A stretch of 64,000 nucleotides of DNA from a virus (lineage: Duplodnaviria > Heunggongvirae > Uroviricota > Caudoviricetes): positions 37,455 through 101,454 of the IMG/VR virus record IMGVR_UViG_3300042472_000628; one strand, 5' to 3'. A model generated the notes under the pieces. It saw nothing but the letters and a program-made list of their open reading frames with translations. It was not told the origin of the DNA and ran no database searches. The translations under genes and the position numbers were made by a program. Positions 2,584 to 62,049 of this stretch are shown here, piece by piece. Positions within the stretch are counted from its first letter, which is position 1. Each line of letters begins with the position of its first letter.

Positions 2584-3873
2584 ATGAAGATTTATAATAC
2601 ATTTGAACATTTTTTAACAGAGAGTTTGCACGACAATCATGACTATACACCAATCTTAGAAGGTGGTGCAGCAGGTCATATGTCACACCCATTTGATAAT
2701 AATGAATTGACGTTTGGTGATTTCAAAGAAATGATTCAAGCCGGTCTTAGTGGATCTCTTAATTTCGAAGAAGAACCTACTGAAAAAACAGACGGTCAAA
2801 ATGTATTTGCAACCATTCAAAATGGTGAAGTAAAATTCGCAAGAAATAAAGGTGATATGAAAACGCCTATGTCTTTGTCTGATTTTAAGACAAAGTTCGA
2901 AGGACATCCTAGTAAATTAGTACAAGACACTTTTCAATTTGCAGCAGATGATTTAGCATCATCTCTTATTAAACTACCAACCAAAACTCAAGAAGAAATA
3001 TTTGCAAATGGATTAAACTTCATGAATATGGAATTAATTTATTCTCTTAATCCTAATGTTATTCATTATGATGTTGATGTTATTCAATTCCATGGTGTAA
3101 AAATAACAGACGGTGAAGGTAATATTACAGGAGAAGATAATTCAGCGGCAAAGAAAATTGCTGGTTTATTAAAAGATGTTGATGCTCATATTCAAAAGAC
3201 ATTCTCTATAATTCCACCACAAGTTATTAAGATAGCTAAAGATATTAACTTTGATGAAAATAAATCAAAGTTCATAGCTAAAGTTGATGCTCTTAGAGAC
3301 ACATTTGGTTTAACAGATGCAGATGCAGTTGCAAGATACCATGAAATGTGGTGGAGAGATCAAATTAATTCAATTTTCCCAGATGCACCACAAGATATTA
3401 AAGAAGGTTTACTATTAAGATGGGCATATGATGATAAGAAAACTCTTAACATCAGAGATCTTGAAAAAATGGGTTTATCAAAAACACAAGCAGATGCTGT
3501 AAAGAAATTTGACAAAGAAGATGTTAAAAAGAAATATAAAGAAAACATTAGACCATTCGAAGATTTATTCTTGGAACTTGGATCTATTATTTTAAAGAAC
3601 GCAAGTAACTTTGTTGCTGCAAACCCTACAGCAGAGATGCAAAGATTACACAACGAACTTAGATCAGAATCGGATAAAATTAAAGCAAACGGAGACCTTT
3701 CTCAAATTGCAAAAGTTGAAGCAGAACTAGCAAGACTAGACAGGATTGGCGGTATTGAATCAATCATACCAACAGAAGGTTTAGTATTTGTTTATAAAGG
3801 TCATACTTATAAATTAACAGGAACATTTGCTGCAGTAAATCAGCTTATGGGATTTATTAAATACGGTAGATAA
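2584..3873 (+). CDS. ATP-dependent ligase-like nucleotidyltransferase (Rnl-like fold) with CTS-like N-terminus
   Basis: Motif I TEKTDG, IIIa IQFHG, IV TEGLVF, V YKLTG. N-terminus MKIYNTFEHFLTE; EGGAAGHMSHPFD motif. Confidence 0.65.
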   Translation: MKIYNTFEHFLTESLHDNHDYTPILEGGAAGHMSHPFDNNELTFGDFKEMIQAGLSGSLNFEEEPTEKTDGQNVFATIQNGEVKFARNKGDMKTPMSLSDFKTKFEGHPSKLVQDTFQFAADDLASSLIKLPTKTQEEIFANGLNFMNMELIYSLNPNVIHYDVDVIQFHGVKITDGEGNITGEDNSAAKKIAGLLKDVDAHIQKTFSIIPPQVIKIAKDINFDENKSKFIAKVDALRDTFGLTDADAVARYHEMWWRDQINSIFPDAPQDIKEGLLLRWAYDDKKTLNIRDLEKMGLSKTQADAVKKFDKEDVKKKYKENIRPFEDLFLELGSIILKNASNFVAANPTAEMQRLHNELRSESDKIKANGDLSQIAKVEAELARLDRIGGIESIIPTEGLVFVYKGHTYKLTGTFAAVNQLMGFIKYGR

Positions 3874-5720
3874 TGGCATTACAAAACTTAAGAACATACT
3901 TTGAATCCTCTAACATTAATGACTTCTTGTCAATGATAGAGTTACCATGCGTTGTATCAGAAAAAATACAAGCATCTTCATTTCACGTTAGAAAAACCAA
4001 TACAGGATTTGAATATTTTAAAAGTGGTTCTAAATCAGCAATGGACAGAATAGACAGAACCATGGTTAAATACTATGAAAATGGTATTAATTATTTTAAA
4101 ACTATTTTACCAGAAGTTACTGAAGAAATGCCAGTAGATTGGAAATTTGGATTTGATTACATGATCGACAACAAGACTGTAGATATTGAGTATGATATTT
4201 TACCAAAAAATCACTTAATTTTAACACACATTCAAATATTAAATCCTACTGATCCAACTCAAATTAAAAAAGTAATTAGAGATCCACAGGTACTAAACAA
4301 ATGGGCTGATAAATTAGGAGTTAACAGAGCGCCAGTTATTTTTGAAGGTAAATTACAATCAAATCAAAAAGATGATCTAGTTAGACTTTTAGAAATATCA
4401 GATGCTGATTTCGCAATTAAATTTAAAGATCACTCTTTCACAAGAACAATATACAATATATTCAATAATGGACTTACAAATCCAGCATTGAACTATTCAT
4501 TAGATAATGAAATCGATGGACTTATCATTAACTTTTATGAAGGTAAAACAATTAAAAGTTTTAAATTAGAGAGATTTGATCGTAAACCACAAGAAGACAG
4601 ATCACCGTCTGATATGTACCAAATTTCAATTTTAGATTTGGTAGAGTACATTACTAACTACGATCTTGACAGTATTCAATTAACCGAAGAGTCAGCTGAC
4701 TTAAGATATATTGAATTAATCTCAGAACTATATAACGGTTACGTTTGGACAAATGCATCTAAATACATTGGTGCTAATTTTGATTCAGCAGATTTTTCAG
4801 ATAATCCTGGATTTGAACTTAATACAGATTTTATTAAAAACGAAAAAACTTTAGCACATGTGCAAAATAAGGTTTTAGCAGAATTATATAAAATTGCATT
4901 AGGAAGCTTTAGAAAGAGAAGAAATAAAGAGACAGATATTATTAACAAAGATTTGATGATTCAGATCAATGACATCGTAGACCATATAGAAACTTTAGTT
5001 ATGGCTAAAACAAATGAAAACGACGTTATGACATTCAAGTCATATCTTATTAATCAAAAACTTCAATATACAGATAGTCCAGTTTTAGAAGGACTTTCAG
5101 TTAAATATCCAGATCAAGGCAAAATGCCAGTAAATATGTTTGTTGGTAGATTCCAACCATTTACACTAGGTCATGTTAAAGTTATTGAAACTATTTATAA
5201 ACAAAATGGATTTCCAGTAGTTATATTTTTAGTTAAATCAAAAACTAAGAAAAAAGAGGATGCATTCTCAAGACCATATGACGAAGACACTCAACTTAAG
5301 ATGTTAGAAAAACTTAAAGGAAAATATCCTATTCAAGAAGTTTTTATAATTGATAGAGGTGCGATCGATTTAATGTTCAATACAATGAGACCTAAATACG
5401 AACCAGTATTATGGGGAACAGGATCAGACAGATTACAAACATATTCATATCAAGTTGATAAACCAGAATATAGAGAAGATTTAGGTTGTAGACCAGATTT
5501 CGGTTTGTTTGAAATACCAAGAACTGGCAAAAACATATCAGCAACTCAAGTTAGAGAAGCTATGTTGGCTGATGACGAGAAGACTTTTAAGAAGCTAACT
5601 CCAGCACCGATACATGATATGTACAATGAATTAAAGACAAAACTAGAAGCATCTATGGGTGTTACAGCAGAGTCTAACGAGACTACATTAACATTTGATC
5701 AGTTTATTAAGAATATATAA
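3873..5720 (+). CDS. Fusion: degenerate ligase-like N-terminal domain plus C-terminal cytidyltransferase/NMNAT-like (T/HxGH) nucleotidyltransferase
   Basis: N-terminal SEKIQAS (KxDG degenerated), IDGLII, SFKLE. C-terminal GRFQPFTLGH, GSDR, ISATQVR. TAATG stop/start overlap with the upstream gene. Confidence 0.7.
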   Translation: MALQNLRTYFESSNINDFLSMIELPCVVSEKIQASSFHVRKTNTGFEYFKSGSKSAMDRIDRTMVKYYENGINYFKTILPEVTEEMPVDWKFGFDYMIDNKTVDIEYDILPKNHLILTHIQILNPTDPTQIKKVIRDPQVLNKWADKLGVNRAPVIFEGKLQSNQKDDLVRLLEISDADFAIKFKDHSFTRTIYNIFNNGLTNPALNYSLDNEIDGLIINFYEGKTIKSFKLERFDRKPQEDRSPSDMYQISILDLVEYITNYDLDSIQLTEESADLRYIELISELYNGYVWTNASKYIGANFDSADFSDNPGFELNTDFIKNEKTLAHVQNKVLAELYKIALGSFRKRRNKETDIINKDLMIQINDIVDHIETLVMAKTNENDVMTFKSYLINQKLQYTDSPVLEGLSVKYPDQGKMPVNMFVGRFQPFTLGHVKVIETIYKQNGFPVVIFLVKSKTKKKEDAFSRPYDEDTQLKMLEKLKGKYPIQEVFIIDRGAIDLMFNTMRPKYEPVLWGTGSDRLQTYSYQVDKPEYREDLGCRPDFGLFEIPRTGKNISATQVREAMLADDEKTFKKLTPAPIHDMYNELKTKLEASMGVTAESNETTLTFDQFIKNI

Positions 5721-8660: not shown

Positions 8661-8667
8661 TATTTTT

Positions 8668-8695
8668 GAAACAATAAAAAACTTAGTAGTATAAT
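8668..8695 (+). promoter_or_regulatory. Putative middle promoter GAAAC-N17-TATAAT
   Basis: Motif recurs with fixed spacing upstream of replication-type genes. Confidence 0.7.
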
Positions 8696-8724
8696 TATCA
8701 AATTAGCAATTTAACATAGACGTT

Positions 8725-10152
8725 ATGAAATTAGTAGACGCTTTAAGACAAGAAGACATTTTAACAGAAAATGGCATGGCCACAAACTCAAGCTCATTAA
8801 ATGCTTGCGTAGATTTATTCTTTAACATTGGTGCAATGAGAGGCCAAGACAAACAACGTTTGATCGCAACCTTTTCGAAAGCGTTCAATGAAGATCCTAG
8901 ACGTGCAATGAAATTGTTATTTTGGGCACGTGATGTTAGAGGTGGTGCAGGTGAACGTCAAGTTTTCAAAGACATCTTAGTTTACTTAGCTGAGAATCAT
9001 GACTTGGTTTTAAAACCAAACTTACACTTGATTTCAGAATATGGTCGTTGGGATGACTTGTTAGTTCTTACAGGAACTTATTTAGAGAAAGAAGCATTTA
9101 CATTAATCTCAGATGCAATCATTGCTGAGAATGGTTTATGTGCTAAATGGATGCCACGTAAAGGTGCAGTAGCTGAAAAGTTACGTAAATTTACAGGTAT
9201 GTCACCAAAACAATATCGTAAATCATTAGTTGGTTTGACAAGTGTTGTTGAAACTAAAATGTGTGCTAAAGATTGGGACTCTATCGAGTTTGGTAAATTG
9301 CCATCAGTAGCATCAGCACGATACCAAAAAGCATTTGGTAAAAATGCATACGAAAGTTATTCAGCTTACATCGCTTCTTTAGTGAAAGGTGAAGCTAAGA
9401 TCAATGCAGGTGCAGTATATCCATATGATGTGATTAAGTCATTGACTCATGGAAATGCAACAGTTGCTAACGAGCAATGGAAAGCTTTACCAAACTACAT
9501 GGAAGGTGCAAACGATATGATTTTACCAGTTGTGGATGTTTCGGGTTCAATGTCAAGTCCAGCAAGTAAAACTGTAACTTGTATGGATGTTGCAATCTCT
9601 TTAGGTCTTTATATTTCTGAAAGAAATGAAGGTGCTTTTAAAGATGCATTCGTTACATTCTCAGATAATCCAAAATTACAAGTAGTTTCTGGATCTTTAG
9701 CTGACAGATATGCACAAATGTCGACAGCTGATTGGGGAATGAGTACAAACTTAGAAGCTACATTTAAATTGATTTTAGATCAAGCTACTAAGCACAAATT
9801 ATCTCAAGACGAAATGCCAAATAAAATCTTAATCTTATCAGATATGGAATTTAATTCGGCAACTGGTTCTAGAGGTTGGGGAAGTAATAGAACTGAAGCT
9901 TGGAATCCAACTGCTCAACAAATGATTGAGAACATGTACGATGTAGCAGGTTACACAATGCCTCAAATCGTTTATTGGAACATTCAATCCAGAAATGGTG
10001 GTGTACCAGTAGCATTTGACAAAGCGGGAACTGCATTGGTATCAGGATTCTCGCCAGCAATTATGACAAGTTTGCTTGGAGGTGATATTGAATCACCACA
10101 ACAAATAATGGATAAAACAATCTTGAGCGAGAGATACGCTCCAATTGTTTAG
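8725..10152 (+). CDS. Ro60/TROVE-related RNA-binding protein with C-terminal vWA domain (DUF2828-like)
   Basis: TENG, LFWARDVRGGAGER, YGRWDDL, AKWMPR, LPSVA and KINAGAVYPY; vWA MIDAS DVSGSM, ILSDMEF, YWN, LVSGFSP. Confidence 0.85.
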   Translation: MKLVDALRQEDILTENGMATNSSSLNACVDLFFNIGAMRGQDKQRLIATFSKAFNEDPRRAMKLLFWARDVRGGAGERQVFKDILVYLAENHDLVLKPNLHLISEYGRWDDLLVLTGTYLEKEAFTLISDAIIAENGLCAKWMPRKGAVAEKLRKFTGMSPKQYRKSLVGLTSVVETKMCAKDWDSIEFGKLPSVASARYQKAFGKNAYESYSAYIASLVKGEAKINAGAVYPYDVIKSLTHGNATVANEQWKALPNYMEGANDMILPVVDVSGSMSSPASKTVTCMDVAISLGLYISERNEGAFKDAFVTFSDNPKLQVVSGSLADRYAQMSTADWGMSTNLEATFKLILDQATKHKLSQDEMPNKILILSDMEFNSATGSRGWGSNRTEAWNPTAQQMIENMYDVAGYTMPQIVYWNIQSRNGGVPVAFDKAGTALVSGFSPAIMTSLLGGDIESPQQIMDKTILSERYAPIV

Positions 10153-10159
10153 ATATATA
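10152..10159 (+). promoter_or_regulatory. Putative late promoter driving the non-coding locus
   Basis: GATATATAATAAA, with no ORF downstream before the terminator at 10506. Confidence 0.6.
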
Positions 10160-10171
10160 ATAAAAGAAATT

Positions 10172-10232
10172 AGGTTCCTTACAGCAAACAATACACAAGC
10201 AATTACAAATTAAGCAAAAAGGAATGGAACCT
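10172..10232 (+). ncRNA. Candidate small structured RNA 1 (closing stem + TACAGCAA), possible Ro60 ligand
   Basis: AGGTTCC(10172-78) pairs with GGAACCT(10226-32). The stem is followed by N-TACAGCAA and an A-rich loop. Confidence 0.5.
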
Positions 10233-10234
10233 GG

Positions 10235-10494
10235 CGGATAGGTACAGCAAAAAGTACAAACACAGCTATGATAGAGTCTAGATAAAAACGTGGAGTTTTA
10301 AAATGGTTCGCCCTCTAAAACAGTGAAGCGCTAGACAAGGTGAAGGTTAACACTAGAAAATGGATCACAAGTCATACCACCCCAATAGGTGCAATTAGGA
10401 TGTAGTCGAAGTATAGTAGACTCTCGCGAAAGCAAAGCCGAAGACTATAAAGAGGGTTATTCTGCCGAGAAGAAAATCACGAACAACTATCCCG
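10235..10494 (+). ncRNA. Candidate structured RNA 2 (about 260 nt, closing stem + TACAGCAA)
   Basis: CGGATAG(10235-41) pairs with CTATCCCG(10487-94, one bulged C); same N-TACAGCAA after the stem. Inner helices CCCTCT/AGAGGG and TGTAGTC/GACTATA, plus a GC-GAAA-GC tetraloop. GC-richer than the flanks; no ORF. Confidence 0.5.
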
Positions 10495-10505
10495 TATTAG
10501 ATTAG

Positions 10506-10553
10506 AATCCTGGTAAAAATTGTTAATAACTTTTTTAACCAGGATTTTTTTTT
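10506..10553 (+). terminator. Rho-independent terminator overlapping the next early-type promoter
   Basis: AATCCTGGT ... ACCAGGATT followed by a T tract. Confidence 0.8.
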
Positions 10554-10576
10554 GTCAATTATTATTCGTATATTAG
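10519..10576 (+). promoter_or_regulatory. Putative early promoter
   Basis: ATTGTTaatAACTTTT ... TGTCAA-N10-TATATTAG. Confidence 0.7.
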
Positions 10577-10601
10577 CTTTATAATTAAAAACAAACAAAT
10601 T

Positions 10602-11336
10602 ATGCCACAAATATTTAAAGTAGGAGGTTGTATTAGAGATAAGTTTCTCGGAGTCGACTCAAAGGACATAGATTTCACATTCGTTTTAGACGATTTAAGT
10701 GGAACAGTAGAAGATGGTTTTCAAATCATGACGGATTGGATGACTGAAAGAGGATTTGAAATATTCTTAAGTACTCCAGATTGTTTTACGATTAGAGCTA
10801 AGTTTCCAAAAGATCACCAATTCACTGGACTTGTTGCAGATTTTGTAATGGCAAGAAAAGAAGTCGGTTACACTGAAGGAACTCGTCGACCAATCTTAGA
10901 ACTTGGAACTCTCGAAGATGATTTACTTCGTCGAGATTTCACAGTCAATGCTTTAGCAGAAGATATTGATGGAAACCTTATTGATCTTTTTGGTGGAGTA
11001 GATGACCTAAAAGCCGGTATTTTAAGAACTCCATTGGATCCACGTATCACTATGATGGACGATCCATTGAGAATCTTAAGAGCTCTTAGATTTACAATCA
11101 CTAAAGATTTGACAATGTCTATGGATATTTGGGAAGCTATTCAGCAACCAGGAATCTTAAAGAAATTAGAATTGACAGTAAGTAGCCAAAGAATCAGAGA
11201 CGAGATTGAAAAAATGATGAAATTTAATACCGTTAGAAGTTTTAGACTTTTAATGGATGTAGATGCTATCATTCCAGGATTTTTAGAATTAATCTTCAAA
11301 GATGGAATGTGGTTAATGCCAACCTTTAAACAATAA
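10602..11336 (+). CDS. cca: Class II tRNA nucleotidyltransferase (CCA-adding / poly(A) polymerase family), compact
   Basis: VGGCIRD, DIDF, RRDFTVNAL, DDPLRILRALRF; only 244 aa. Confidence 0.85.
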   Translation: MPQIFKVGGCIRDKFLGVDSKDIDFTFVLDDLSGTVEDGFQIMTDWMTERGFEIFLSTPDCFTIRAKFPKDHQFTGLVADFVMARKEVGYTEGTRRPILELGTLEDDLLRRDFTVNALAEDIDGNLIDLFGGVDDLKAGILRTPLDPRITMMDDPLRILRALRFTITKDLTMSMDIWEAIQQPGILKKLELTVSSQRIRDEIEKMMKFNTVRSFRLLMDVDAIIPGFLELIFKDGMWLMPTFKQ

Positions 11337-16386: not shown

Positions 16387-17058
16387 ATGAAAAATAAAGC
16401 AGAAGATGCATGGCAAATCCTAAGAATTCAAGGAGAATTTACAAAAGGATTTGATACATTTAGCGAACTGGGCCCATGTATTTCCGTATTCGGAAGTGCA
16501 AGAACCAAAGTTGCAACTAAATGGTATGAAGAGGCAAAATTATTCGGCAAACTAATTGCATGTGAAGGTTTTGGTGTAATTACAGGAGGTGGTCCTGGTA
16601 TTATGGCAGCAGCTAATCATGGCGCAAAAGAAGTTGGTGGTAAATCTATTGGAATTGGAATTGAATTGCCATTTGAAGCAGGAATGAACAAGTATGTTGA
16701 CCTTGGAGTTGAGTGTAGGTATTTCTTTACACGTAAAGTTATGTTCTTAAAATACTCACAAGCGTTTGCAGTATTTCCTGGAGGTCTTGGTACAATGGAT
16801 GAATTATTTGAAGCTATTACATTAGCACAATGTGGACATAATGTAAAATACCCAATAGTTTTAGTTGGTAAAGAATACTGGACAGGATTAGTAGATTGGC
16901 TTAGAAACGTTGTACTTGAAAATGGTAAAATGAGTGATAAAGATTTTGATCTATTTAGAATCGTAGACAGTGCAGAAGAAGCAAGAGATAAAATCATGGA
17001 ATATCATAACAAATATATGACAGATCCAGAATATTTAGGAAGTAAAACAAATTTTTAA
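16387..17058 (+). CDS. LOG family (TIGR00730-type) nucleotide monophosphate phosphoribohydrolase
   Basis: SVFGSAR, TGGGPGIM, YFFTRK, PGGLGTMDELFE. Confidence 0.9.
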   Translation: MKNKAEDAWQILRIQGEFTKGFDTFSELGPCISVFGSARTKVATKWYEEAKLFGKLIACEGFGVITGGGPGIMAAANHGAKEVGGKSIGIGIELPFEAGMNKYVDLGVECRYFFTRKVMFLKYSQAFAVFPGGLGTMDELFEAITLAQCGHNVKYPIVLVGKEYWTGLVDWLRNVVLENGKMSDKDFDLFRIVDSAEEARDKIMEYHNKYMTDPEYLGSKTNF

Positions 17059-17060
17059 TT

Positions 17061-17957
17061 ATGTCACACGATAAACACACAAATAGTAATAGAAATCAGG
17101 ATCTAAATCTAATGATGCCAAATAGACAGGCTTGGTTAGATTTAGCAGGTGATTGGAAAGATCCATTCGATTCTCCTAAAATTGTAGAACATGATGGATT
17201 TAACGTAGTTCGAGAAGATTTAATGGGCTTTGGATCTAAATGTAGATTTGGTGACATCTTAGTTAGTAAATGTCAAACAGATACATTAGTATACGTTCAA
17301 CCTCGTTTTGGTTTTGCTGGAATTTCATTGGCATATTTAGCTGAAAAGTACAATAAGAAATTGGTCTTATTTAGTCCATCTCAAAAAGAGATTTCAGATC
17401 ATCAAGCTATTTGTATTGAGAATGGCGCTGAAATGAAATTTAAAAGAATCGCAGCAATGCCAAATCTGAATGCACATGCAAAAAGATGGGCTGAAGAAAA
17501 CAATGCAACTTTTATTCCATTAGGTTTAAAACATGAATTAGTTACAGCGGCTGCAGTTAAAGTAGCTTATGATCTTGCAGAGGAACATGGATACCCGAAA
17601 GAAGTTTGGTCTGCTATTTCAACAGGAGTTTTACAAAGAGCTTTACAAATCGCATGGCCAGATGCAGACTTTAATGCAGTGGCAGTTGCACGTAATATCA
17701 AAGATGGTGAATTAGGAAGAGCAAATGTATGGTCACATCCTAAACAATTTAATCAAGATGTAGATGCTGCATATATGCCACCGTTTCCTTCAGCTACTAA
17801 CTATGATGCAAAAGCATGGGAATTTATGAAAAAACATGGAAATCCAGGTGCATGGTTTTGGAATGTAGGTGGAGATCCTAAACCAAAACAAATGACTACT
17901 AAAGAAACTGTTAATTCTCAAAGAGGATGGGGAGAAGTTTTGGAAATGGATCAATAA
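17061..17957 (+). CDS. PLP-dependent enzyme, fold type II
   Basis: VVREDLMGFGSKCR (Schiff-base Lys), AISTG, YDAKAW, FWNVG. Confidence 0.75.
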   Translation: MSHDKHTNSNRNQDLNLMMPNRQAWLDLAGDWKDPFDSPKIVEHDGFNVVREDLMGFGSKCRFGDILVSKCQTDTLVYVQPRFGFAGISLAYLAEKYNKKLVLFSPSQKEISDHQAICIENGAEMKFKRIAAMPNLNAHAKRWAEENNATFIPLGLKHELVTAAAVKVAYDLAEEHGYPKEVWSAISTGVLQRALQIAWPDADFNAVAVARNIKDGELGRANVWSHPKQFNQDVDAAYMPPFPSATNYDAKAWEFMKKHGNPGAWFWNVGGDPKPKQMTTKETVNSQRGWGEVLEMDQ

Positions 17958-18010: not shown

Positions 18011-18478
18011 ATGGCAAACATAGACAACGAATGTAAAGATCTAGAAGTACAAGACTTTTACGACCAATCGACAACACACTTAGAAGATATTATGTCGCAT
18101 CAAAAAGAGATGCAAGAAAAAACTTATGGAATTAAGTTTGACGAAATGTCAATTAGAGAAGTAATGAATTTTTGGCATGTTAATACTCACGCAGTTATTG
18201 ATGAGTTACATGAAATGACAGATGCTCTTGGTGGTATTAAAGATGGCTCTGGAAATGCAGTATGGAAATACTGGAAAAAAGACTTCTCAAAATATGAAAC
18301 TATGAAAGTTTCAGATCTATCAGAAGATGATCGTAAAGAGTTGTTCATGGAATGGATCGATGTATTACATTTCTTTATTAATTATGCAGCATCAATTGGC
18401 CTAGATGCAAAAACAGCATATAATTATTATTTCGCAAAAGCAGAAGAGAATAAAAACCGTCAAAAACGAGGCTATTAA
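18011..18478 (+). CDS. All-alpha dimeric dUTPase/dCTPase (gp56-like, MazG superfamily)
   Basis: DELHEM, KYWKK, EWIDVLHF, KAEENKNRQKRGY. Confidence 0.8.
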   Translation: MANIDNECKDLEVQDFYDQSTTHLEDIMSHQKEMQEKTYGIKFDEMSIREVMNFWHVNTHAVIDELHEMTDALGGIKDGSGNAVWKYWKKDFSKYETMKVSDLSEDDRKELFMEWIDVLHFFINYAASIGLDAKTAYNYYFAKAEENKNRQKRGY

Positions 18479-19890
18479 TGTTATTAGATATAGAACAAAC
18501 CGAAAAGGAACTAATAGTTTCATATTACGACAAAGAAGGAAAGGTTTCCTTCAAGAGATATTCTGTAAACCAATTCCAAAATTGGGTAGTCACAGAAGAA
18601 AAAGATAAGCATAAAGATAGTACCTATAGAAATTGGGACAATAGACCACTTAAAAGAGGTATTGCAAAATCTTTTAATAAATTTAGTTTGTTATATTTCA
18701 TGGACTCTTTGCCTGAAAAAGACAAAGAAGAGATCTATGAATTTAATATGCCACGAACATACTTCGTCGATATTGAAACCGAGATCGTTGATGGTTTCCC
18801 AAAACCAGAAGAGGCTAAGTCTCGTATCTTAACATTTTCAATTATTACGCCTGAACGTAAAGCAATTGTATTAGGTCTTGAAGATTTAACATCAGAACAA
18901 ATTGCTAAAATTGAAAAGGATACTAATGCACACTTAAAAAACTACGACACTGATTGGGACTTTTCATATCATAAGTTTGATGATGAGTACAATATGTTGT
19001 ATACATTCTTACATAAGTTTTTGCCTAAGTTCCCAATGATGACAGGGTGGAACTTCATTAACTATGACTGGCAGTATATAGTCAATAGATGTAAACGATT
19101 ACAGATTGACCTGACTGAAGTGGCAATCACTGGTAGCTTAGACAAGACAGATCAGCGACCAATGCACATGGGAATTTTGGATTATATGCAATTGTATGAT
19201 AAATATGACAGATCAGTTGCTGTAAAAGAATCAAATTCATTAGACTTTGTTTCTGGTGCAGTATTAGATGTTAATAAAATCAAATACAGCGGATCATTAA
19301 CAGATCTTTATAATAATGATTTTACAAAGTATGTTTTTTATAACGTAATTGACTCGTGTCTTGTATATTATATAGATCGACAATTAAGATCAATGGAAGT
19401 ACTTTTAACATTAGCAACTATTACAAGAATGCCTTTATATAAAGCTTCGTCACCTGTGGCAATCACAGAAGCTTTGTTAGCAAGAAAACTAGCAGAAACA
19501 AATAAAAAGATTGGTATAGAATACGGCAAAGCAGATTCTCTTAAAGAAGGTAAATTTGAAGGAGCATTTGTAAAGCAACCTATTGTTGGTTATTATAGTG
19601 GAGTAAGTGCATTTGACTTTGCATCACTATATCCTTCAATCATGAGACAGTTTAATATTTCTCCCGAGTCATTCGTTGAACAAGTTCCTGAATCTGAAAT
19701 TATCGAAAGACGAAAAGATACAGCTGTAATTGTTTGTGAAAATGGTGTAGTATTTAAGAAAGAAGACTCAATTCTTAAAAAGATTCTAAGTGATTTATAT
19801 GCTCAGCGTAAAGATTACAAAGCTACTTCATATAAATATTATGAAAAAGCACATGAGCTAGAAAAAAAACTAAAAAAAATTAAAAATTAA
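18478..19890 (+). CDS. gp43: Family B DNA polymerase, N-terminal half (3'-5' exonuclease + motif A)
   Basis: ExoI FVDIET, ExoII GWNFINYD, ExoIII YNVIDS, motif A DFASLYPS. Ends after RKDYK in the fingers. Confidence 0.9.
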   Translation: MLLDIEQTEKELIVSYYDKEGKVSFKRYSVNQFQNWVVTEEKDKHKDSTYRNWDNRPLKRGIAKSFNKFSLLYFMDSLPEKDKEEIYEFNMPRTYFVDIETEIVDGFPKPEEAKSRILTFSIITPERKAIVLGLEDLTSEQIAKIEKDTNAHLKNYDTDWDFSYHKFDDEYNMLYTFLHKFLPKFPMMTGWNFINYDWQYIVNRCKRLQIDLTEVAITGSLDKTDQRPMHMGILDYMQLYDKYDRSVAVKESNSLDFVSGAVLDVNKIKYSGSLTDLYNNDFTKYVFYNVIDSCLVYYIDRQLRSMEVLLTLATITRMPLYKASSPVAITEALLARKLAETNKKIGIEYGKADSLKEGKFEGAFVKQPIVGYYSGVSAFDFASLYPSIMRQFNISPESFVEQVPESEIIERRKDTAVIVCENGVVFKKEDSILKKILSDLYAQRKDYKATSYKYYEKAHELEKKLKKIKN

Positions 19891-61962: not shown

Positions 61963-62047
61963 GGAGGATTGGCAGAGTGGTCGATCGCGGCAGTCTTGAA
62001 AACTGTTGTACCGCAAGGTACCGTAGGTTCGAATCCTACATCCTCCG
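61963..62047 (+). tRNA. trnS: tRNA-Ser(UGA), CCA not encoded
   Basis: Acceptor GGAGGAT/ATCCTCC, D loop TGGCAGAGTGG, anticodon arm GCAGT-CTTGAAA-ACTGT, long variable arm, T arm GTAGG-TTCGAAT-CCTAC; followed by G-CAA. Confidence 0.95.
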
Positions 62048-62049
62048 CA

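What the first reader, a model, noticed from the sequence alone, without database searches (positions are those of the whole stretch)
8725..10553. Ro60/TROVE-like gene followed by its own transcription unit of two stem+TACAGCAA structured RNAs: candidate novel phage Ro-RNP
Seen: immediately after the TROVE/vWA gene lies a 350-nt ORF-free region with its own late-type promoter (10152) and terminator (10506). It holds two tandem elements, each closed by a 7-bp terminal stem (AGGTTCC/GGAACCT; CGGATAG/CTATCCCG with one bulged C) and followed at identical spacing by N-TACAGCAA. Element 1 is about 60 nt with an A-rich loop. Element 2 is about 260 nt with nested helices (CCCTCT 10311/AGAGGG 10451; TGTAGTC 10401/GACTATA 10443; GC-GAAA-GC). 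Known: Ro60 proteins bind Y RNAs through a 5'/3' terminal stem with a bulge, and bacterial Ro genes lie next to their Y RNA genes and RNA-repair genes. The stems here lack the canonical GGUCCGA Y-RNA sequence. Inference: a divergent Y-like RNA class with a shared ACAGCAA protein-binding motif and a variable cargo domain, acting with the adjacent CCA-adding enzyme in RNA protection or repair.
Basis: partly seen in the sequence, partly recalled or inferred. Interest (0 to 1): 0.87.

Follow-up and report, generated by a model that had tools for sequence, protein, structure and literature searches.

The report
Phage Ro60-like protein with handle RNAs
A lake-water phage encodes a ring-shaped protein that folds like the RNA-binding autoantigen Ro60, followed by two expressed small RNAs sharing a conserved docking "handle"; the same protein-RNA pairing recurs across very different phages, I found no published description of the RNA family, and the handle looks strikingly like the orphan Class I RNAs of social amoebae.

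Summary
Gene 8725-10152 is a DUF2828/DUF7788 protein whose high-confidence model matches Ro60/TROVE structures. It is followed by a separate transcription unit: a recurrent phage promoter motif, two RNAs and a terminator.

Both RNAs carry the same handle: a 6-7 bp closing stem, one base, UACAGCAA, and an N-G tail after the 3' stem strand. Element 1 (10172-10235) is a 64-nt bare handle. Element 2 (10235-10494) carries a conserved 236-nt body.

The handle recurs downstream of the homologous gene in nearly all of 80 viral contigs, with covarying stems. It also lies beside the gene in Felixounavirus, Listeria, Campylobacter, Bacillus and Mycobacterium phages. The same genome has three more handle RNAs behind its tRNA array, one carrying a permuted tRNA like bacterial YrlA.

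Contigs from four metatranscriptomes cover the RNA region; in two they cover only that region, and two end exactly at 10494.

The Y-RNA-like reading is supported, but binding is inferred. Cooperation with the neighbouring CCA-adding enzyme is not supported, nor are the inner helices proposed for element 2.

This scan has found the same family on other DNA many times. A preprint already reports a Ro60-like Felixounavirus protein (Bas63 gp130), apparently of this family, that counters a defence system.

The parts
8666..8702 (+). Promoter-like site of the Ro60-like gene (TTGAAA-18-TATAAT, then TATAATTATCAAA)
   Evidence: 11 of 12 match. The exact 13-mer TATAATTATCAAA occurs only twice in the 165-kb genome: here and 37 nt upstream of the second handle-RNA cluster.
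8725..10152 (+). Ro60-like protein gene (Pfam DUF2828 + DUF7788; PHROG 850 'RNA-binding protein'), 475 aa
   Evidence: AlphaFold model pLDDT 93. Best PDB matches are TROVE/Ro60 structures, E 2e-8 to 8e-6, TM up to 0.62. Swiss-Prot fold hits are Ro60 of frog, mouse, human, Deinococcus and worm. Invariant MIDAS-type residues D271, S273, S275, T341, D373.
10152..10164 (+). Recurrent phage promoter motif GATATATAATAAA driving the RNA unit
   Evidence: 18 forward, 0 reverse and 0 control matches in the genome. Conserved after the stop codon in relatives. One RNA contig starts at 10168.
10172..10235 (+). Element 1: short handle RNA (7-bp closing stem, U, UACAGCAA, A-rich 38-nt loop, N-G tail)
   Evidence: R1 63.7 bits, the only R1 hit in the window; MFE is the closing stem only. 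Sub-threshold hit to Rfam RF01414 (28.9 bits).
10235..10494 (+). Element 2: long handle RNA (stem GGAUAG/CUAUCC, G, UACAGCAA, 236-nt conserved body, C-G tail)
   Evidence: 34 distinct homologues of 184-262 nt. Alignment A3 has conserved blocks and a compensatory closing stem. RNA contigs of two studies end at 10494.
10295..10321 (+). Variable hairpin inside element 2 (GUUUUA...UAAAAC around UGGUUCGCC)
   Evidence: Read from A3. The stem changes to GUUUAAA/UUUAAAC, GCUAA/UUAGU and GCC/GGC in relatives and is replaced in others. My reading of the alignment, not a statistical test.
10460..10471 (+). Conserved hairpin UUCU-GCCG-AGAA inside element 2
   Evidence: RNAalifold pairs 248-251/256-259 with changes on both sides in 2, 6 and 10 sequences.
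10506..10553 (+). Intrinsic terminator (AAUCCUGGU...AACCAGGAUU plus U-run)
   Evidence: Sequence and hairpin alignments. One RNA contig stops at 10513, others at 10494.
10602..11336 (+). Neighbouring tRNA nucleotidyltransferase-like gene (PolyA_pol head domain), not a conserved partner
   Evidence: Adjacent only in the 98%-identical relative L009, 1 of 80 loci.

Best explanation
The gene encodes a ring-shaped Ro60-type protein: a helical-repeat TROVE-like ring plus a vWA/MIDAS domain, in the sequence family DUF2828/DUF7788. The two RNAs downstream are its Y-RNA counterparts. Each RNA closes its 5' and 3' ends into a 6-7 bp stem beginning with G. It presents a single-stranded U(A/U)C(A/U)GCAA next to the 5' strand and ends in an N-G tail. 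I propose that this 'handle' docks on the protein, as the terminal stem of a Y RNA docks on Ro60. The rest of the RNA is a swappable module that recruits or decoys another factor. That module is an A-rich loop in element 1, a conserved 236-nt domain in element 2, and a permuted tRNA in a third RNA elsewhere in the genome. The unit is transcribed from its own phage promoter, and probably also by read-through from the gene, and is trimmed to a 3' end at 10494. The likely role is manipulation of host RNA metabolism or defence during infection. Shown here: fold, RNA family, linkage, covariation and expression. Inferred: binding, and the role of the modules.
For: Protein: Pfam DUF2828 + DUF7788. 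The model has pLDDT 93 and its best structural matches are Ro60/TROVE proteins, including a Thermus phage Ro60. A family profile ranks Ro60 chains first in the PDB, though weakly (E 0.04-0.09). A MIDAS motif is invariant.

RNA: 28 distinct short elements give 97% paired cells, and 5 of 7 pairs show compensatory change. Model R1 finds 74 hits in 536 kb of related loci, all on the gene's strand just downstream.

Sequences not used for training also hit, in the unannotated gap beside the gene: Felixounavirus pinkbiff, and Listeria A511, Campylobacter PC5, Mycobacterium Whirlwind and Bacillus PBC2, each with new stem sequences. Motif-plus-stem is 96% near the gene against 9% elsewhere.

The same genome has three more handle RNAs after its tRNA array. 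One has the YrlA topology of T arm, closed acceptor stem and D arm. That cluster shares an exact 13-nt promoter-like sequence with the protein gene.

Expression: contigs of four metatranscriptomes cover the RNA unit. In two they cover 10168-10494 and 10140-10513 only. In a third, summed contig depth is about 20 times that of the gene. One contig runs into adapter sequence right after 10494.

Literature: Bas63 gp130, a Felixounavirus protein 'directly upstream of tRNA genes', is Ro60-like and counters the Ppl defence. Its authors guessed that Y RNAs hide among the tRNAs (PMC11482910).
Against: No binding data exist. Pfam TROVE itself is not matched, and identity to Ro60 is only 11-18%. The handle lacks the conserved Ro-binding helix of known Y RNAs, and no Y_RNA or YrlA Rfam hit appears. 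Contigs cannot prove RNA ends or levels, and adapter junctions also occur elsewhere in the same run. One of five distant phages tested (Vibrio ValKK3) showed no convincing element beside the gene. The seed elements were selected partly by their pairing, so one search is somewhat circular. That Bas63 gp130 belongs to this family rests on its description and position, not on a sequence I compared. Bas63 gp130 expressed alone restored and improved T7 plaquing on a Ppl strain, so the protein can act without its own phage's RNAs.
Confidence: 0.7

Rival explanations
1. The handles are RNA-processing signals. The stem plus ACAGCAA would be recognised by a host or phage ribonuclease that cuts polycistronic tRNA/sRNA transcripts, and the link to the DUF2828 gene would only reflect a shared operon with tRNA arrays.
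For: Handle RNAs sit inside or at the end of tRNA arrays in this genome and in Felixounavirus. RNA contigs end right at the base of the handle stem.
Against: In this window and many relatives there is no tRNA nearby, yet the elements still follow the gene. Short elements with no cargo would have nothing to process. The linkage survives across phages of five bacterial phyla on either side of the gene.
Confidence: 0.1
2. The elements are cis-acting autoregulatory sites. The protein would bind its own transcript's 3' or 5' region to control its mRNA stability or translation, and the RNAs would have no trans function.
For: The elements lie immediately beside the gene, downstream or upstream. One RNA contig spans gene plus RNAs.
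Against: The unit has its own recurrent promoter and a terminator. A second cluster lies 64 kb away with its own promoter. Cargo modules such as a permuted tRNA are conserved. In two runs the laid RNA contigs cover only the RNA unit and none of the flanking gene.
Confidence: 0.08
3. They are base-pairing small RNAs. The single-stranded ACAGCAA and the A-rich loop would act as a seed against host or phage mRNAs, independent of the neighbouring protein.
For: The motif is single-stranded and invariant. The short elements resemble sRNA hairpins, and the unit ends in a terminator.
Against: A seed would not require a covarying closing stem at a fixed one-base distance plus an N-G tail. It also would not explain strict co-occurrence with one protein family across unrelated hosts, or tRNA-shaped cargo.
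Confidence: 0.05

Closest known systems
Ro60 (Rsr/TROVE + vWA) with Y RNAs, especially bacterial and mycobacteriophage YrlA (Chen et al. 2014, PMC4201824; Rfam RF02553), and Thermus phage phiLo Ro60 (PMC12135203; PDB 9l5y)
   Same: Same protein fold. RNA genes lie next to the protein gene. The 5' and 3' ends are closed into a stem that would serve as the protein handle. There is a modular second domain, and one RNA of this genome has the same permuted-tRNA topology as YrlA. The system is encoded by a phage.
   Different: The protein belongs to a different sequence family (DUF2828/DUF7788, not Pfam TROVE). The handle is a short perfect stem plus single-stranded UACAGCAA rather than the long bulged Ro-binding helix. 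No Rfam Y-RNA model matches. Several RNAs occur per genome, including bare handles and a 236-nt body unlike tRNA.
Bas63 (Felixounavirus) gp130, an anti-Ppl counter-defence protein with Ro60-like structure (PhageMaP preprint, PMC11482910)
   Same: Described as Ro60-like and lying directly upstream of the tRNA genes. The homologue of the window protein (44% identity) occupies that position in Felixounavirus pinkbiff. The authors suspected Y RNAs among the tRNA genes.
   Different: The preprint identified no RNA partner. The handle RNAs found here lie between the annotated tRNAs. I did not compare the Bas63 sequence itself. This window's phage is an uncultivated lake-water phage with no tRNAs next to the gene.
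Dictyostelium Class I RNAs (Rfam RF01414; Kjellin et al. 2021, PMC7919456)
   Same: About 60 nt and 32-41% GC. A 6-bp stem joins the 5' and 3' ends with a conserved 5' G. The motif CCUUACAGCAA lies next to the 5' strand (exact 11-mer at 10177-10187). The middle is variable and A/U-rich, and U-G follows the 3' strand.
   Different: Scores stay below the family threshold (28.9-30.7 against 41.5 bits). There is no DUSE promoter and the host is different. Class I RNAs are reported as unique to Dictyostelia, and their proven binder is the RRM protein Rnp1A. Homology versus convergence is untested.

Membership tests
Ro60/TROVE - Y RNA ribonucleoprotein | Protein matches the TROVE domain by sequence (Pfam PF05731) | tested here: not met
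   Pfam gives only DUF7788 (1e-52) and DUF2828 (2e-34). A family profile ranks Ro60 chains first in the PDB, but at E 0.04-0.09.
Ro60/TROVE - Y RNA ribonucleoprotein | Ro60 fold: helical-repeat ring followed by a vWA domain with a MIDAS motif | tested here: met
   Model pLDDT 93. Foldseek top 13 PDB hits are all TROVE/Ro60, E 2e-8 to 1e-4, TM up to 0.62. Swiss-Prot top 5 are Ro60. D271-x-S273-x-S275, T341 and D373 are invariant.
Ro60/TROVE - Y RNA ribonucleoprotein | Partner RNA genes adjacent to the protein gene, with 5' and 3' ends paired in a terminal stem | tested here: met
Ro60/TROVE - Y RNA ribonucleoprotein | Conserved Ro-binding helix with bulge, detectable by Rfam Y_RNA or YrlA models | tested here: not met
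No Y_RNA or YrlA hit at E up to 10 in the region or at E up to 1 in ten related loci.
Ro60/TROVE - Y RNA ribonucleoprotein | tRNA-like effector module (YrlA type) | tested here: inconclusive
   Present in a sister RNA of the same genome (G000:C1:112036-112176). Not evident in elements 1 and 2 of the window.
Ro60/TROVE - Y RNA ribonucleoprotein | RNA physically bound by the protein | not testable with these tools
   Needs RIP/CLIP, gel shift or a structure.
Dictyostelium Class I RNA (RF01414) | Score at or above the Rfam gathering threshold (41.5 bits) | tested here: not met
   28.9 bits for element 1. 21-30.7 bits for sister elements.
Dictyostelium Class I RNA (RF01414) | Short stem joining the ends, 5' G, 11-nt motif CCUUACAGCAA, about 60 nt, GC 32-41% | tested here: met
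   Element 1: exact 11-mer at 10177-10187, 64 nt, GC 0.38. Family features compared with PMC7919456.
Dictyostelium Class I RNA (RF01414) | DUSE promoter element about 60 nt upstream; dictyostelid genome | tested here: not met
   The source is a phage contig from lake water. The upstream element is the phage motif GATATATAATAAA.

The most novel reading that the evidence does not exclude
The phage handle RNAs and the Class I RNAs of dictyostelid amoebae may be one RNA family whose common partner is a DUF2828-type Ro60-like protein. Eukaryotes (fungi, dinoflagellates, plants) do carry DUF2828/DUF7788 proteins at about 30% identity to the phage one. One of the four proteins pulled down with Class I RNA DdR-21, DDB_G0281243, has no known function. 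If that protein, or another dictyostelid protein, is a DUF2828 member, the orphan Class I RNAs would be the Y RNAs of a second, overlooked Ro-like RNP lineage shared by viruses and eukaryotes.
Probability: 0.12. Interest if true: 0.9.

Novelty: new variant of a known kind. Interest (0 to 1): 0.8.

Why it matters
Ro60-Y RNA particles are a classic RNA-surveillance system and a human autoantigen. A second protein family with the same fold is present in at least 710 sequenced phage records and in about 6,600 protein clusters. It comes with its own, apparently undescribed, RNA class. This widens the Ro/Y concept. It would explain many unannotated gaps beside phage tRNA arrays. It also gives a concrete RNA partner to test for a protein already linked to counter-defence (Bas63 gp130 against Ppl). 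The modular cargo (bare handle, tRNA mimic, large conserved domain) suggests a general way for phages to aim one protein at several host RNA-handling factors. The resemblance to Dictyostelium Class I RNAs makes their long-standing lack of a function testable.

Tried and rejected
- The single-sequence AlphaFold model was useless (pLDDT 37), so I replaced it with a model from a 103-sequence alignment.
- Rfam at gathering thresholds found only one tRNA in the window.
- The folding energy of the whole region is not better than shuffles, so thermodynamics alone does not support a structure.
- RNAalifold on element 2 recovered only the closing stem, one hairpin and fragments. I could not derive a full structure for the 236-nt body or identify what it mimics.
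- I tried to learn whether Dictyostelium has a DUF2828 protein, or whether DDB_G0281243 is one. Swiss-Prot fold search lists only Ro60s. AFDB clusters hide organisms. The Atlas search gave only viral and bacterial clusters. The 'longer' homology search gave fungi and a dinoflagellate but no amoeba. A paper search for the gene id gave only the preprint. The question stays unresolved.
- I could not locate the Bas63 record by a guessed accession.
- No RtcB or RNA ligase was found among ORFs within about 10 kb.
- The RF01414 hit at G000:C1:113725-113788 (-) lies in what reads as coding sequence, and I discounted it.
- Depth figures from contigs are not a measure of expression, and parts without cover prove nothing.
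Full report
WHAT IS THERE. The window is part of a 165-kb viral contig, estimated 61% complete, from lake water. ORF 8725-10152 (+, 475 aa) is followed by 449 nt with no + strand ORF; only the tail of a short opposite-strand frame reaches in. Then comes a 244-aa gene. In that gap I read the following:
- Stop codon at 10150-10152.
- GATATATAATAAA at 10152-10164.
- Element 1 at 10172-10235: AGGUUCC, U, UACAGCAA, a 38-nt A-rich stretch, GGAACCU, GG.
- Element 2 at 10235-10494: GGAUAG, G, UACAGCAA, 236 nt, CUAUCC, CG.
- A hairpin plus U-run terminator at 10506-10553.

THE PROTEIN. Pfam matches DUF7788 and DUF2828, not TROVE. PHROG 850 is annotated 'RNA-binding protein'. A single-sequence fold failed. 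With 102 diverse homologues the model reached pLDDT 93.
- Its best PDB matches are all TROVE/Ro60 structures. These include a Thermus phage Ro60, frog and human Ro60, and Deinococcus Rsr, at E 2e-8 to 1e-4 and TM up to 0.62.
- The best reviewed-protein matches are Ro60 of five species.
- A family profile ranks Ro60 chains first in the PDB, though only at E 0.04-0.09.
- The MIDAS residues D-x-S-x-S, T and D are invariant.

So the protein has the Ro60 fold but belongs to a separate sequence family. That family is very large: 6,593 representatives at 50% identity and 710 phage records. It also has eukaryotic members in fungi, a dinoflagellate and plants.

THE RNA FAMILY. I fetched 80 viral contigs encoding homologues at 58-98% identity.
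- Nearly all carry the same kind of element just downstream of the gene. In some it is displaced about 400 nt by an inserted small ORF, with the roughly 60-nt spacing between the two motifs kept.
- More distant loci carry variants of the motif (UUCAGCAA, UUCUGCAA, UACUGCAA, UGCAGCAA) and up to three elements in tandem.
- Twenty-eight distinct short elements align end to end. In the 7-bp closing stem, 97% of cells pair and 5 of 7 pairs show compensatory change. G2:C and U5:A are invariant.
- After the stem comes one base, then U(A/U)C(A/U)GCAA. After the 3' strand comes N-G.
- A covariance model (R1) finds element 1 as the only hit in the 64-kb window. It finds 74 hits in 536 kb of related loci, all on the gene's strand just downstream.

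The seeds were chosen partly by their pairing, so I ran two independent checks.
- First, in 56 distinct loci 97 of 101 motif copies next to the gene have a 6-bp stem plus N-G tail, against 22 of 246 elsewhere.
- Second, phages not used for training have hits in the unannotated gap beside the gene, each with new stem sequences. These are Felixounavirus pinkbiff, between annotated tRNAs, and Listeria A511, Campylobacter PC5, Mycobacterium Whirlwind and Bacillus PBC2.
- Vibrio phage ValKK3 gave nothing convincing.

MORE COPIES IN THE SAME GENOME. Outside the window, right after the phage's tRNA array, lie three more handle RNAs at G000:C1:112036-112312.
- The first has a cargo that folds into a T arm (GUAGG-UUCGAGU-CCUAC), an acceptor-like stem closed by a loop, a D-arm-like hairpin and an anticodon-stem-like helix leading to the handle.
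- This is a tRNA opened at the anticodon and closed at the acceptor end, the topology described for bacterial YrlA Y RNAs (PMC4201824).
- This cluster is preceded by TATAATTATCAAA. That 13-mer occurs exactly twice in the genome, the other copy being the promoter-like site of the Ro60-like gene. This hints at co-regulation.

ELEMENT 2. Thirty-four distinct homologues of 184-262 nt share long conserved blocks and a compensatory closing stem, GGAUAG/CUAUCC against GGAUCG/CGAUCC and GGAACG/CGUUCC. A hairpin UUCU-GCCG-AGAA covaries. A variable hairpin at 10295-10321 changes its stem between relatives, by my reading. I could not solve the rest or say what it mimics. No Rfam family matches.

TRANSCRIPTION. 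GATATATAATAAA occurs 18 times in the genome with up to one mismatch. All copies are on the forward strand, with none on the reverse strand or in the control. It is therefore a genuine phage promoter-type motif, and the RNA unit has its own copy.

Six metatranscriptomes hold about a quarter of the words of a 1.2-kb probe, which is the share that the RNA unit makes up. I laid four of them.
- In one the only contig covers 10168-10494 without a mismatch.
- In a second the contig covers 10140-10513.
- In a third a contig from a 95% relative spans gene plus RNAs and runs into Illumina adapter directly after 10494.
- In the fourth, summed contig depth over 10233-10355 is about 20 times that over the gene.

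Contigs cannot prove ends or levels, and adapter junctions occur elsewhere in that run. Still, selective cover of the intergenic unit with none on the flanking genes is not what DNA carry-over would give. Two studies stopping at the last base of the handle's tail is a hint of a trimmed 3' end.

WHAT IT MOST LIKELY DOES. By analogy with Ro60, the handle would dock the RNA on the ring protein and the variable module would engage another factor. Binding is inferred from fold, strict genomic linkage across phages of at least five host phyla, and shared promoter sequence.

A preprint reports that Bas63 gp130 is Ro60-like, counters the Ppl defence system, and might use Y RNAs hidden among the tRNA genes (PMC11482910). 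Bas63 is a Felixounavirus, and gp130 is described as lying directly upstream of the tRNA genes. The homologue of the window protein sits in that position in Felixounavirus pinkbiff, and the handle RNAs lie between its tRNAs. I did not compare the Bas63 sequence itself. gp130 alone helped T7, so the protein can act without its own phage's RNAs.

The neighbouring CCA-adding-type gene is adjacent in only 1 of 80 loci, so no special partnership is indicated. No RtcB or ligase lies nearby here, although Listeria A511 has a tRNA-splicing ligase a few genes away.

COMPARISON WITH KNOWN THINGS. The system works like Ro60-Y RNA. It is not a member by sequence on either side: there is no TROVE Pfam hit and no Y-RNA Rfam hit.

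Element 1 gives a sub-threshold hit to Dictyostelium Class I RNA (28.9 bits, threshold 41.5). Sister elements give 21-31 bits. The resemblance is detailed:
- a 5' G,
- a 6-bp stem,
- the exact 11-mer CCUUACAGCAA,
- a length of about 60 nt,
- similar GC content,
- U-G after the 3' strand.

Class I RNAs are reported as unique to Dictyostelia, and their proven binder is an RRM protein. One pulled-down protein, DDB_G0281243, is of unknown function. I could not determine whether it, or any dictyostelid protein, is a DUF2828 member. This is a lead, not a finding.

EARLIER NOTES OF THIS SCAN. The same protein-RNA pairing has been reported by this scan on many other genomes. Those notes gave me the lead to the Bas63 preprint, which I read myself. 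Everything else above was tested here independently.

VERDICT. The core interpretation is supported, with binding still inferred. It is a new variant of the Ro60-Y RNA kind, and I found no published description of the RNA family.

Noticed in passing
G000:C1:112036-112312 (outside the window; L090:1500-1776): Second cluster of three handle RNAs directly after a nine-gene tRNA array. The first carries a permuted tRNA-like body. The cluster is preceded by the same 13-mer (TATAATTATCAAA) as the Ro60-like gene.
   Followed up: yes
window 10152-10164 and 17 other sites of the genome: GATATATAATAAA is a strictly strand-specific recurrent motif (18 forward, 0 reverse), probably this phage's late- or middle-type promoter.
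   Followed up: partly
window 9700-10900, metatranscriptome run X19: One RNA contig joins the end of element 2 (10495), through a 37-nt terminator-like insert, back to 10229. This suggests a relative with tandem copies of element 2, or an assembly cycle.
   Followed up: no
L053:4963-5017: Near-threshold Rfam hit to the cyanobacterial sRNA NsiR1 (37.7 bits, threshold 39) over the 3' end of the element-2 homologue and the sequence that follows. Probably spurious.
   Followed up: no
L100 (Listeria phage A511) 4612-6500: An HD phosphohydrolase and a tRNA-splicing ligase (RtcB-type) lie a few genes downstream of the Ro60-like gene, an RNA-repair context absent from this window.
   Followed up: no
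window 3873-5720, 16387-17058, 17061-17957: A 615-aa protein with a C-terminal cytidylyltransferase-like domain, a LOG/SLOG 'lysine decarboxylase-like' protein and a weak PLP-enzyme match. These may be nucleotide- or base-modification genes.
   Followed up: no
window 18478-19890: A 470-aa ORF holds only the exonuclease and the first part of the polymerase domain of a family B DNA polymerase. The polymerase gene may be split, as in some T4-like phages.
   Followed up: no
window 61963-62048: A lone tRNA-Ser (UGA anticodon), far from the main tRNA array.
   Followed up: no
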